From Styela clava (Eukaryota), in the NCBI RefSeq assembly GCF_964204865.1, contig NC_135262.1, forward strand, positions 4,402,001-4,466,000: DNA of 64,000 nt. Reading direction: 5' to 3'. This document shows positions 54,001 through 57,000 of the stretch, in pieces. Every line of letters begins with the position of its first letter. Position 1 is the first letter of the stretch. Made by a program: the position numbers.

Positions 54001-57000
54001 TCCTCATTTTTGAATTAAATTCGTTAGTTTTTAGTTGTTTTTCGGAAATTTAAATAAAAATCATATAAGTCAATGATTACTTTGTCCTCCTATGAGTTTC
54101 AGTTTAAATACGGTAATCAAAAATTGGTGTAGAAATAGCTGTGATGGACTATAGGCTAAATTTTTTTATCGGTACTTTTAAAAAACAGATTGTTGAATGG
54201 TATGAATTAGAATGATAGTTTGAAACAAATACCCTATTTTACAGGCAAACACTCGCGAAACCACTCTTAAAAATAAGCACCGAAAATTTAAAAATGATAA
54301 AGTATATAGGAAGAATTTTACGCGGTCAAAAGTCGGGGATAGGTCTATTCAGTGAATCGTCCCGGGCCATATTTTTTTACTTAAGCCGTATTTTGTCGAC
54401 CACTGGGATACGCCAACTACCGTACCTTACTGCGGAGACGAGTCCAGAAATCCTTTCGCGTGTGATAATTGACCACGTGAATCAAGTCTGCGAATGCACA
54501 CAGCGTAGGCTACAGAATTGAGTGCACGATACGCAGAGCAATAACAGATTTCGCGAAATCGCCCCCCTATCGCCCCCTTCGACTTTTTCGCCCCCCTCTG
54601 TATCGTTTTCGCCCACCGGGGGGCGATATCGCCCACTTTGGGAATCACTGACCTAGATGATGTAAATATCATTTGTTAGCTTTTTATACTTTGCTTTCTT
54701 ATATTCTTCATTTAATATTTCTTATACTTAGCTAATTCATTGAATCAGACATATGCATCGATGACAATAAAATTTTGAGTCACCAACAAAATTTGTTATT
54801 GTGCATTCCCAGATAAGGTTTTTATAATTTTAAATAATTGTGTTAAGAAGTTGGAATAAAAATTAATCAGGAATTTCTTCAAATAAGTTATTACCGGTTC
54901 GATATTAAAAACATCACAAAAATATTCGATCTTGGACAGCCGTCCCTATTACCCAGTCAATTCAATTATATCATATTTTATATACATACAAGACATTACA
55001 TAAATGCCTCTTGTCTACCCACAATTAGTGGAACCTTAATTCTGAATTCTGCTTCAATTGAAATCAAAATTTTTATGAAATGATGTAAATAAAAATTCCT
55101 GACAATTATCAATATAATCCTAACCTGTTGAATTCCAGTAATATTTTTTAACCAATTGCTAAACTTCTCCAGGTTGCATCACTTGCATGGTTATATTTTT
55201 TGTGAATATAAGTTAGAGTAATAACTTGACGATGGCAAAGGTTTCGGATAATGAGTTTGATTTGGATATTGATGTAAATGAACACAATGCATTAATGATG
55301 GGTAAATTGCATAGTATGAAAAAAGATGGACAACATTCTGACCTCGTCATCAAAGTAGGAAGTGAGGAGTTCTTGGTTCACAAGAACATGATGTCAGCGG
55401 GTTCTGATTATTTTGATGCGATGTTGTCACATGATAACTTGGAGACCAACACAGGAATTGTTAAAATGCAAGATGTTGATGTGGAATCAGTAAAGGTTTG
55501 CATTGATTACATTTACACTGGAAAAGCTTCAATTACTTTGGAAAAAAGTGAACAACTACTCCATGTTGCAACTTTGATGCAGTTATCAGTACTTTGTGAT
55601 AAGATAGCCGAGTTTCTCAAAGCTAAGTTGGACATGAAAACACTTCCCTTTATCAAACAAACTGCTTCTATGTTTGAAATCCAAACAATAAAAACAGCAT
55701 GTGATGATTTTGCATTGTCTAATATGGGAGCAATTTCTCAGGAAGAATACTTCAATGAATTGGATGTAGAATTCATCTCCTTCATGGTTGGATCGAAAAA
55801 TTTATCTTATTCTGAGGATTCTAAACTTGCTGTTCTTCTGCAGTGGATCAAAGGTGATATTGACCAACGAAGAAAACTTCTGGTTGAAATGATAAATCTG
55901 ATAAACCTGAATAATGTTTCTTATCGATATGCAACATTCTTAGTGGAAAATGAAAGCCTGTGTGTTGAATTACCTGTAATCTTAAAATTATTGTTTCTCA
56001 AAATGGCTGAGAAGTCTGGTGTTAAAGGAGCATCTGCAGAAATTCCCACCAATGCACCTGAATTCAATGCATTTGCAGTTTTTGACAAGACTTCGAGAAA
56101 AATCAAAACATTCCGGCCAGAAAAAAAAGAATGGCAGGATCTAAAAAAACTGCATGATGGTATGGTAAATAGCTATTACACTGCAGTCATGGTGAAGGAT
56201 TTCATCTATGTTTTTATGGAGAATCGTTCAGTATATCGTATTAATATTTCTGGACCAGATTCAACTTGGAATAAAATAGCTGATTACCAATTTGAACATG
56301 GCCAGTTTTTGCGAGCAGAATTTTGTAATGAATTCATTTATCTTTTCGGCATGAAAACATTGGAGGGGTATGATATCAGCAAAAATGTGTGGGGCCTGGT
56401 AGAAACAGAAAAAAATACACTATTCAACTGTACATTAGCTGGATTCCAGCAATCAATTTACATACTAGGAGGTTCTAATAATGGTAGTTTATCATCAGTG
56501 AATCGATATTCACTGCCATCCACTTGGTCTTCATGCAAAGCCATGAATGTTCCTCGGGAGCTTCCTGCTGCTACAGTTAATGGGAATCGAATATTTGTGG
56601 CAGGCGGATTTAATAATATCTACGGGTCATTATCTAGTTCAGAGTTTTGTGATCTACAAACAGACTGTTGGACAAATTTAGCCTCAATGACAGTTCCTCG
56701 GTATTATTTTGGCCTTTGCACTGTTGGTAATGAATTATTTGCAATTGGAGGTGAAAAAGGCCGGTCAAAATCGGTTGAAAAATACAATTTTGAGTCAAGT
56801 CATTGGGAGAATCTTATAAATTTTCCAGAAAATATGAATATTGCTCCACCTGCCAGTCTGGCATATAAACTTCCACCATAGTCAGTGGCGCAGCCAGGGG
56901 GGGGGGGGGGGGGGGGGGGTTCGGGGTCGAACCCCCCCCCCCTTTTGAATTTTCCGAAAAGTGAAAAAGTTGCCGATAACACGCGCAATTGCCTTCTGCT

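What the first reader, a model, noticed from the sequence alone, without database searches (positions are those of the whole stretch)
54885..56881. K5 is a recombinant gene: K3-type upstream region and BTB joined to a K2-type BACK-Kelch
Seen: 54885-55225 matches the K3 upstream region (43921-44280). The N-terminus has K3-type SDNEF and KTLPFIKQ where K2 has SDKEF and KSLLIIKQ. From about 55745 onward it follows K2, including the hAT insertion at the stop codon. The six later K2/K5 amino-acid differences all lie in the Kelch region. Inference: crossovers in the conserved BTB/BACK region swap promoters and recognition domains, a way of generating new variants.
Basis: seen in the sequence. Interest (0 to 1): 0.7.

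Follow-up and report, generated by a model that had tools for sequence, protein, structure and literature searches.

The report
Mosaic BTB-Kelch gene in sea-squirt array
One gene in a tandem family of ubiquitin-ligase adaptor genes of a sea squirt is a real patchwork of its neighbours, which is an ordinary outcome of DNA exchange between tandem gene copies rather than a new mechanism.

Summary
By protein hits the window is Styela clava. It carries six intronless BTB-BACK-Kelch genes, K1 to K6. K5 (55232-56881) has K3-type sequence from 54886 to 55663 and K2-type sequence from 55666 on. Informative sites split 71 K3 / 15 K2 on the left and 191 K2 / 5 K3 on the right, and 0 of 2000 permutations matched this. 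The 5' and 3' trees conflict (K5+K3 99/98; K5+K2 100/100), and AU tests reject the opposite groupings.

The two-parent crossover reading is too simple.
- The K2-type tract is bounded. It runs about 4.6 kb (55666 to about 60281), carries the shared hAT-like insertion, and ends inside a DsbA-like exon.
- The K3-type tract starts at a non-homologous junction (54885/54886) with a copy of the K1-downstream spacer.
- Codons 61-146 are closest to P0005, a paralogue outside the window.
- K2 is itself mosaic, since its BTB is about 100% K3. Synonymous divergence is 2-6 times lower in BTB than in Kelch.

The best reading is a K1-K2 block duplication followed by non-reciprocal exchange. K5 carries no new Kelch domain; it differs from K2 at 6 residues there. 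Assembly or haplotype error could not be tested. This is an ordinary process in an undescribed gene array.

The parts
55232..56881 (+). K5: intact 549-codon ORF, BTB (27-132) + BACK (142-233) + Kelch repeats
   Evidence: ORF; Pfam BTB 3.4e-21, BACK 3e-09, Kelch_1 1e-21
54644..54885 (+). End of the K4-block copy of the K1-downstream spacer (matches 33240-33486). It abuts K5's upstream region at a non-homologous junction, 54885|54886.
   Evidence: BLAST 93.5%. The last 60 bp are 100% identical. The junction sequences share only about 1 nt.
54886..55350 (+). K3-type upstream region (346 bp) and first ~40 codons of K5
   Evidence: Windows 91-100% identical to K3. A run of 26 polymorphic sites is identical to K3 across 54963-55053, with 0 of 2000 permutations reaching it. 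Upstream tree K5+K3 99/98.
55414..55496 (+). Patch where K5 differs from both K2 and K3 (which are identical to each other here). It matches K6 at 4 of 6 sites. At protein level it matches P0005 (K78, D81, V89).
   Evidence: Site table; codon table; protein comparison. The K5-K6 run of 13 sites has p=0.013, uncorrected for 15 pairs.
55582..55663 (+). K3/P0005-type stretch encoding T137, P139, F140 (TLPF) and T144, which only P0005 shares
55663..55692 (+). Main breakpoint interval (codons 144-154), at the BTB-BACK boundary
   Evidence: Maximum chi-square break at 55663|55666. Best single breakpoint on the 97-column grid is at 55709.
55666..60281 (+). K2-type tract of about 4.6 kb (matches about 37523-42150). 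It covers BACK, Kelch, the hAT-like insertion, the 3' flank and the left part of the DsbA-like repeat.
   Evidence: 98-100% identity in 200-column windows, apart from a homopolymer stretch. Identity is 100% up to about 60252-60281 and then drops to 82-92%.
56884..58596 (+). Non-autonomous hAT-like insertion shared with K2 (38741-40447). The 8-bp duplication CCATAGTC (56876-56883 and 58597-58604) includes the stop codon.
   Evidence: No ORF of 150 aa or more lies inside it.
37089..38738 (+). K2: partner of the 3' tract and itself mosaic. Positions 37126-37425 are 98-100% identical to K3 44324-44623.
   Evidence: The K2-K3 run of 25 sites had 0 of 2000 permutations reaching it.
44284..45930 (+). 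K3: nearest in-window relative of K5's upstream region and 5' end
47317..54885 (+). K4 block, a copy of the K1 block 27690-33486. The gene core has 4 mismatches in 2000 bp (30343-32342) and the flanks have 2-5%. It is interrupted by a second hAT-like insertion at 52864-54650.
60165..60635 (+). DsbA-like (thioredoxin-fold) exon copy downstream of K5, frameshifted. The right end of the K2-type tract lies inside it.
   Evidence: Pfam DSBA match for the intact copies at 27877-28344 and 42035-42502. Frames and identities.

Best explanation
K5 is a real mosaic paralogue in a Styela clava tandem array of intronless BTB-BACK-Kelch genes, which are presumed Cul3 substrate adaptors.

The most likely history has three steps.
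1. A two-gene block (K1 with its spacer, and K2 with its hAT-like insertion and 3' flank) was duplicated to give K4-K5. Both block ends lie in the DsbA-like repeat.
2. In the copy, about 4 kb (equivalent to 33487-37522: the rest of the spacer, the K2-type upstream region and codons 1-144) was replaced by 780 bp of K3/P0005-type sequence. This was a non-reciprocal repair event. One end was homologous, at the BTB-BACK boundary. The other was a non-homologous join at 54885/54886.
3. Short conversion tracts then kept patching the 5' third of K2, K3, K5 and K6, while the Kelch parts stayed distinct.

Shown: the mosaic itself, the breakpoints, the bounded tracts, the junction and the low synonymous divergence in BTB. 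Inferred: the order of events, their direction, the repair mechanism, and any effect on expression or on Cul3 and substrate binding.
For: Breakpoint. Of 282 informative sites, the 86 left of 55663|55666 split 71 K3 / 15 K2. The 196 to the right split 191 K2 / 5 K3. Chi-square is 194.3, reached by 0 of 2000 permutations.

Trees. For 54886-55663, K5+K3 has support 99/98. For 55666-56881, K5+K2 has 100/100. The AU test rejects K5+K2 in the 5' part (p=0.0014) and K5+K3 in the 3' part (p=9e-24).

Likelihood scan. AICc falls from 10914.1 with no breakpoint to 10664.6 with one, and to 10570.3 with four.

Bounded K2-type tract. It has 0-4 mismatches per 200 columns from 55742 to about 60120, apart from a homopolymer stretch. 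Identity then decays inside the DsbA-like exon.

Shared insertion. K2 and K5 carry the same insertion with the same 8-bp duplication.

Block layout. The copy of the K1 block runs exactly up to 54885, with the last 60 bp 100% identical to 33427-33486. It joins K3-type sequence with about 1 nt of overlap.

Third relative. Across codons 61-146, K5 differs from P0005 at 2 residues, from K3 at 5 and from K2 at 8.

Pervasive exchange.
- The K2-K3 identical run covers 25 sites, with 0 of 2000 permutations reaching it. PHI also had 0 of 2000.
- dS among K2, K3, K5 and K6 is 0.07-0.20 in BTB against 0.41-0.46 in Kelch, leaving out the recent K2-K5 pair, whose Kelch dS is 0.018.
- The N-terminal ~200 residues are mosaic in all 11 family sequences painted.

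Against a simple mis-join. K5 differs from K3 within the K3-type part and from K2 within the K2-type part (10 nt in the Kelch region, plus differences in the insertion).
Against: - No reads or second assembly could be consulted, so continuity across 54.8-57 kb is unverified.
- K1/K4 flanks differ by 2-5% while K2/K5 non-coding sequence differs by about 0-1.5%. A single duplication explains this only if later conversion is invoked.
- A pre-existing K5 gene that received K2 sequence by long-tract conversion, with separate insertion of a K1 copy, fits the same data.
- In the coding 5' part alone, K5+K3 support is weak (69/71) and the AU p against K5+K2 is only 0.031.
- The P0005 link rests on protein sequence only. 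Its DNA is outside the window and could not be fetched.
- The direction of the K2/K5 exchange is unknown.
Confidence: 0.7

Rival explanations
1. One reading: one reciprocal unequal crossover between K3 (5' part) and K2 (3' part) within the conserved BTB/BACK region created K5 as a duplication-type hybrid.
For: K5 has the orientation expected of a duplication-type hybrid: the 5' end of the downstream gene joined to the 3' end of the upstream gene. The main breakpoint lies in well-conserved sequence at 55663-55692.
Against: Such a product would read K2 - hybrid - K3. The region upstream of the hybrid would be continuous K3 upstream context, and K2 downstream sequence would run on into a second K3. 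What is seen is different:
- K3-type sequence starts abruptly at 54886 against a K1-downstream copy.
- K4 lies between K3 and K5.
- The K2-type tract ends at about 60281.
- The next gene, K6, is only about 86% identical to K3.
- Codons 61-146 fit P0005 better than K3.
Confidence: 0.08
2. A pre-existing, older K5 gene, with its 5' end related to K3/P0005, received a 4.6-kb K2 tract by long-tract interlocus gene conversion that carried the transposon across. The K4 block was inserted upstream separately.
For: Both ends of the K2-type tract lie in sequence homologous between the loci: the BTB-BACK boundary and the DsbA-like exon. The K3-type part is less similar to K3 (94-99%) than the K2-type part is to K2, which suggests it is older. 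The K1/K4 and K2/K5 divergences differ.
Against: This model needs two independent events that happen to recreate the K1-then-K2 order as K4-then-K5. It also needs a K1-block insertion that ends exactly at K5's truncated upstream region. Conversion across a 1.7-kb insertion is possible but less usual (general knowledge, not tested here).
Confidence: 0.17
3. Assembly artefact: either a mis-join between paralogues inside the conserved BTB/BACK stretch, or two haplotypes of one K1-K2 locus laid out in tandem.
For: - The breakpoint lies in the most similar part of the genes.
- K1/K4 and K2/K5 divergence (0-5%) is in the range of allelic difference. The S. clava genome paper gives about 1.72% heterozygosity (PMC7540406, passage seen).
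- No protein at least 90% identical to K5/K2 from any source other than this contig was in the protein collection; the cluster has 2 members, both from the window's contig.
Against: - The window has no N.
- K5 is not a copy of K3 joined to a copy of K2; it has its own differences on both sides.
- K3 and K6 (about 86%) cannot be alleles.
- Even if K4-K5-K6 were a second haplotype, K5 would still be a K3-type/K2-type mosaic, because a deletion in the order K2-K3 would give the opposite hybrid.
Confidence: 0.1

Closest known systems
BTB-BACK-Kelch (KLHL-type) Cul3 substrate adaptors, e.g. KLHL12 and KEAP1
   Same: Domain order BTB, BACK, Kelch repeats by Pfam. The Kelch region matches solved KEAP1, KLHL12, KLHL20 and KLHL17 propellers at E 1e-21 to 1e-30. 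RefSeq names the relatives 'kelch-like protein'.
   Different: These genes are intronless, tandemly arrayed and specific to this lineage. The nearest relatives outside the subfamily are other S. clava proteins at 48% identity or less. No Cul3 or substrate binding was tested.
Fast-evolving ubiquitin-ligase adaptor families (MATH-BTB, F-box) with a conserved cullin-side domain and a diversifying substrate-side domain. Recalled: Thomas 2006, Genome Research. The paper was not retrieved here.
   Same: The cullin-side part (BTB) is conserved, with dN/dS 0.06-0.23. The substrate-side part (Kelch) is much more divergent, with dN/dS 0.38-0.64. The genes lie in a tandem array.
   Different: No dN/dS above 1 was found, so positive selection is not shown. 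Here low synonymous divergence shows that BTB conservation is partly due to conversion, not only to constraint.
Hybrid genes from unequal exchange or interlocus conversion in tandem families: haemoglobin Lepore/anti-Lepore, red/green opsin, CYP21A2/CYP21A1P, KIR hybrids (recalled textbook cases)
   Same: A chimeric ORF with a breakpoint in conserved sequence. The regulatory/5' module of one paralogue is joined to the 3' module of another.
   Different: The flanks do not show the anti-Lepore layout of upstream gene - hybrid - downstream gene. One boundary is a non-homologous junction, and there are at least three sequence sources.
hAT-superfamily non-autonomous DNA transposons
   Same: 8-bp target-site duplication and short terminal inverted repeats starting CAGTGG, in both insertions (38741-40447 = 56884-58596, and 52864-54650).
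   Different: No transposase ORF. The superfamily was assigned only from duplication length and termini. The typical hAT terminal motif is recalled, not tested against a repeat library.

Membership tests
BTB-BACK-Kelch (KLHL-type) proteins | N-terminal BTB/POZ domain | tested here: met
   PF00651, E 3.4e-21, residues 27-132 of K5. All five K proteins scanned match (K4 was not scanned; it differs from K1 at 3 residues).
BTB-BACK-Kelch (KLHL-type) proteins | BACK domain after BTB | tested here: met
   PF07707, E 3e-09, residues 142-233 of K5
BTB-BACK-Kelch (KLHL-type) proteins | C-terminal Kelch-repeat propeller | tested here: met
   Kelch_1 E 1e-21, Kelch_6 and Kelch_2 above their cut-offs. Matches to solved Kelch propellers. 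The number of blades was not determined.
BTB-BACK-Kelch (KLHL-type) proteins | Binds Cul3 through BTB/3-box and a substrate through Kelch | not testable with these tools
   No binding test was run. The function is inferred from family membership.
Recombinant (mosaic) paralogue | Significantly different phylogenies on the two sides of a breakpoint | tested here: met
Classical interlocus gene conversion tract | Bounded tract with both ends in homologous sequence, donor left intact | tested here: inconclusive
   Met for the K2-type tract 55666 to about 60281. Not met for the K3-type tract, whose 5' end is a non-homologous junction. K2 and K3 are intact ORFs.
Duplication-type hybrid from one unequal crossover | Hybrid flanked upstream by the full context of the 5' parent and downstream by the 3' parent's context, running into a second copy of the 5' parent | tested here: not met
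hAT-superfamily transposon (non-autonomous) | 8-bp target-site duplication | tested here: met
   CCATAGTC flanks the K2/K5 insertion. ACCTAGAT flanks 52864-54650, with the empty site at 33246-33253.
hAT-superfamily transposon (non-autonomous) | Terminal inverted repeats | tested here: met
   24-nt arms 83% complementary, including the duplication. 20-nt arms 90% complementary.
hAT-superfamily transposon (non-autonomous) | hAT transposase or similarity to a catalogued hAT element | not tested
   No ORF of 150 aa or more lies inside it. No repeat library was available.

The most novel reading that the evidence does not exclude
The array behaves as a modular system. Upstream/BTB modules are repeatedly exchanged and homogenised among paralogues, while exchange is kept out of the Kelch modules or is selected against there. 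The same recognition propeller is therefore re-deployed under different promoters and BTB variants. Examples are the K2-type Kelch under two upstream types, and the K6-type Kelch joined to three different N-termini in K6, P0003 and P0042. If this partition is maintained by selection, for example for a fast-evolving defence or self-recognition role in a tunicate, it would be a combinatorial way of diversifying E3 adaptors.
Probability: 0.15. Interest if true: 0.6.

Novelty: new member of a known kind. Interest (0 to 1): 0.3.

Why it matters
The finding documents, at base-pair resolution, how a young tandem family of ubiquitin-ligase adaptor genes is reshuffled. It shows bounded exchange tracts, a non-homologous repair junction, a transposon carried along as a marker, and a 5' third that evolves in concert while the substrate-side domain diverges.

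This is useful for annotating the S. clava genome, because these paralogues are easily mis-assembled or mis-merged. The RefSeq model P0042, for example, fuses two genes. The array is also a candidate for studying adaptor diversification.

It does not reveal a new mechanism. Chimeric paralogues from conversion or unequal exchange are well known.

Tried and rejected
- A cluster of K5-private substitutions around the breakpoint (4 of 17 within 55 bp) looked like a mark of error-prone repair. A scan statistic gives at least 4 in some 55-bp window in 2380 of 20000 random placements, so this was dropped.
- A K6-derived patch at 55469-55510. The 13-site run has p=0.013 before correction for 15 pairs, which is not significant alone. 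The protein match to P0005 explains it better.
- I first thought the right end of the K2/K5 tract and the left end of the K1/K4 tract fall at the same repeat position. The alignment places them about 150-175 columns apart, and the K1/K4 end is ill-defined because all copies are 96-98% alike there. Only 'both inside the DsbA-like exon' is kept.
- A search for longer (fused) relatives of K5 found none at E<=1e-50. It also missed the known 1075-aa P0042, so it is uninformative.
- Literature. 'Styela clava' + 'kelch' gave 4 papers, none relevant. 'BTB' + 'kelch' + 'lineage-specific expansion' + 'tandem' gave 16 papers, of which 15 were listed; none concerns tunicates. 'MATH-BTB' + 'positive selection' + 'gene conversion' gave 1 paper, on P450 genes. 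Searches also found nothing on this array.
- No structure prediction or complex prediction was run, because no claim here depends on one.
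Full report
**What is in the window**

The window has no N. It carries six + strand, uninterrupted ORFs of 547-549 codons:
- K1 30633-32279
- K2 37089-38738
- K3 44284-45930
- K4 50240-51886
- K5 55232-56881
- K6 62355-63998

Five of the six (K1, K2, K3, K5 and K6) were scanned, and each has BTB, BACK and Kelch matches above Pfam cut-offs. K4 was not scanned; it differs from K1 at three residues. Their Kelch parts match solved KEAP1 and KLHL propellers.

Protein hits name the organism as Styela clava. More than 20 'kelch-like' proteins at 31-48% identity lie on the same 20.3-Mb contig. 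The close subfamily (78% identity or more) consists of K1-K6, P0005 (outside the window), and the RefSeq models P0002, P0003 and the 1075-aa P0042.

Between the genes lies a repeat of about 1.7 kb. It holds a DsbA-like thioredoxin-fold exon. Two copies are intact and three are frameshifted. I searched this gene only as single exons and made no joined model.

**The observation**

Sliding identity shows three things:
- K5 matches no paralogue upstream of 54885.
- K5 is 98-100% identical to K3 across 54960-55181.
- K5 is 100% identical to K2 from about 55750 to 56350.

The site table and a triplet maximum chi-square test put the switch between 55663 and 55666:
- Left of it, 71 of 86 informative sites agree with K3 and 15 with K2.
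- Right of it, 191 of 196 agree with K2 and 5 with K3.
- Chi-square is 194.3, reached by 0 of 2000 permutations.

Maximum-likelihood trees are incongruent:
- For 54886-55663, K5+K3 has support 99/98.
- For 55666-56881, K5+K2 has support 100/100.

AU tests:
- K5+K2 is rejected in the 5' part (delta lnL 33.0, p=0.0014).
- K5+K3 is rejected in the 3' part (delta lnL 116.8, p=9e-24).
- With the coding 5' part alone the signal is weaker (K5+K3 69/71; AU p=0.031).

A GARD-like grid scan used 97-column steps, HKY+G4 and 14 parameters per segment. AICc falls as follows:

| Breakpoints | AICc | Positions |
|---|---|---|
| 0 | 10914.1 | none |
| 1 | 10664.6 | 55709 |
| 2 | 10601.5 | 55224, 55806 |
| 3 | 10580.8 | 55224, 55709, 56000 |
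| 4 | 10570.3 | 55224, 55515, 55709, 56000 |

**The transposon marker**

K2 and K5 share an insertion directly after the stop codon:
- It occupies 38741-40447 in K2 and 56884-58596 in K5.
- It has the same 8-bp duplication, CCATAGTC, which contains the TAG.
- It has imperfect terminal inverted repeats.
- K1, K3 and K4 show the empty site.

This fits a non-autonomous hAT-like element. The superfamily call rests on the duplication length and termini only. The insertion shows that the 3' part of K5 and of K2 is one piece of DNA by descent.

The mismatch cluster just after the stop is a length difference in G and C homopolymers.

The K2-type tract is bounded. K2 and K5 have 0-4 mismatches per 200 columns from 55742 to about 60120. 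Identity then falls to 95, 91, 82 and 60%. The drop begins at about 60252-60281, inside the DsbA-like exon. The tract is therefore about 4.6 kb long.

The K3-type tract begins at a non-homologous junction:
- 54644-54885 is a copy of the K1-downstream spacer 33240-33486, and the last 60 bp are 100% identical.
- At 54885/54886 it joins K3-type sequence with about one shared base.

Upstream of that junction, 47317-54885 is a copy of the whole K1 block 27690-33486:
- The gene core has 4 mismatches in 2000 bp.
- The flanks differ by 2-5%.
- A second hAT-like insertion at 52864-54650 interrupts it, with the duplication ACCTAGAT. The empty site is at 33246-33253.

So K4-K5 repeats the order K1-K2. 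The equivalent of 33487-37522 has been replaced by 780 bp of another type.

**More than two sources**

Between 55414 and 55496, K2 and K3 are identical to each other and K5 differs from both at 6 sites.

At protein level the counts are as follows:

| Codons | Differences from P0005 | from K3 | from K2 |
|---|---|---|---|
| 61-146 | 2 | 5 | 8 |
| 1-60 | 4 | 1 | 1 |

K78 is shared with P0005 (and with the N-terminal half of P0042), and T144 with P0005 only. At DNA level these two sites look K5-private within the window.

P0005's DNA lies outside the window, and no tool could fetch it. This third relative therefore rests on protein sequence alone.

**Exchange is pervasive in the 5' third**

- K2 37126-37425 is 98-100% identical to K3 44324-44623.
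- The longest pairwise identical runs are significant, with 0 of 2000 permutations, for K2-K5 (153 sites), K3-K5 (26 sites) and K2-K3 (25 sites). K1-K3 and K3-K4 have p=0.0015. The other 10 of the 15 pairs have p>=0.013.
- PHI on 263 informative sites is 0.0747 against 0.1318 +/- 0.0040, with 0 of 2000 permutations as low.
- Among K2, K3, K5 and K6, synonymous divergence is 0.07-0.20 in BTB but 0.41-0.46 in Kelch, leaving out the recent K2-K5 pair, whose Kelch dS is 0.018. K1 shows about 0.30-0.33 against all the others in both regions. Low dS cannot come from protein constraint, so the BTB region is being homogenised.
- dN/dS rises from 0.06-0.23 in BTB to 0.17-0.45 in BACK and 0.38-0.64 in Kelch. 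No value exceeds 1.
- Painting of 11 family sequences shows mosaic N-terminal ~200 residues and discrete Kelch types. The K6-type Kelch is joined to three different N-termini in K6, P0003 and P0042.

**Mechanism**

A single K3 x K2 unequal crossover predicts the layout K2 - hybrid - K3 with continuous homologous flanks. That layout is not present.

The data fit a duplication of the K1-K2 block followed by non-reciprocal replacement of the copy's spacer, upstream region and first 144 codons. One end of that replacement was homologous, at the BTB-BACK boundary. The other was an end-joined junction.

The same data also fit an older K5 that received a long K2 tract. I give these readings about 0.7 and 0.17. 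The direction of the K2/K5 exchange is open, and K2 is itself a mosaic.

**What K5 is functionally (inference)**

K5's Kelch differs from K2's at 6 residues: K391E, M395N, Y473C, C491Y, R494G and L540P. That is 7 non-synonymous and 3 synonymous changes. There is also L153I in BACK. Y473 is Tyr in the other 8 aligned proteins.

So no new recognition domain arose. The novelty is the K2-type Kelch behind a K3-type proximal upstream region, truncated at -346, with a BTB that differs from K2's at 9 residues. Whether K5 is expressed is unknown.

**Caveat**

Assembly error cannot be tested here. S. clava heterozygosity is given as about 1.72% (PMC7540406, passage seen). That paper's main text has 0 occurrences of 'kelch' or 'BTB', and its supplements were not seen. 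This heterozygosity is in the range of the K1/K4 and K2/K5 differences.

Three points argue against a simple chimera:
- K5 has its own differences from both K3 and K2.
- K3 and K6 cannot be alleles.
- A second haplotype would still need a K3-type/K2-type mosaic.

**Comparison and novelty**

The architecture is that of KLHL-type adaptors. The evolutionary pattern resembles MATH-BTB and F-box adaptor families and classical hybrid genes in tandem arrays. Those comparisons are recalled and were not retrieved. Stogios et al. 2005 (PMC1257465) was seen only as a search listing and the start of its abstract.

Five literature searches found nothing on this Styela array. It is a new example of a known process, of modest interest.

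Noticed in passing
30343-32342 vs 49950-51949; flanks 28159-30342 and 32343-33486: K1 and K4 differ at only 4 of 2000 bases across the gene core, but at 2-5% in both flanks. This suggests an older duplication with recent homogenisation of the gene itself.
   Followed up: partly
37126-37425 vs 44324-44623: The BTB-coding part of K2 is 98-100% identical to K3, although their upstream regions and Kelch parts differ. K2 is therefore a mosaic too.
   Followed up: partly
27877-28347, 42035-42505 (intact); copies near 33970-34440, 47500-47980, 60165-60635 (frameshifted): A DsbA-like thioredoxin-fold exon (Pfam DSBA, profile positions 60-190) is repeated once per inter-gene spacer. Two copies are open and three are broken. 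Only single exons were searched.
   Followed up: partly
33448-33753 and 41541-41840: Just upstream of each DsbA-like exon lies a relic resembling the first ~45 codons of a K gene: 55% identity over 44 aa to K5 (E 5e-09). It is 86% identical over 35 aa to the internal join of the RefSeq fusion model P0042. The spacer repeat may descend from an older, disrupted K paralogue.
   Followed up: partly
52864-54650: A second non-autonomous hAT-like insertion (8-bp duplication ACCTAGAT, termini CAGTGGTTCCCAAA) lies in the K4-K5 spacer only. The empty site is in the K1 spacer at 33246-33253.
   Followed up: yes
38753-38795 vs 56896-56940: The G and C homopolymer runs near the 5' end of the shared insertion differ greatly in length between K2 and K5. 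This could be real instability or sequencing error in homopolymers.
   Followed up: no
14906-17200: An uninterrupted 764-codon ORF with two Neuralized homology repeats and a C-terminal RING finger (Pfam E 1.2e-64). It is another putative E3 ligase, upstream of the array.
   Followed up: no
56648-56650 (codon 473 of K5): K5 has Cys where the other 8 aligned family proteins have Tyr, in the SSSEFYD stretch of a Kelch repeat. This may be a sign of relaxed constraint on K5.
   Followed up: no
961-1289 vs 1284-1611: A direct tandem repeat of about 325 bp at 97.6% identity near the window start.
   Followed up: no
49135-49695: A 186-codon ORF upstream of K4 with no Pfam match. The corresponding K1 region is about 97% identical but has no ORF of 150 aa or more.
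   Followed up: no
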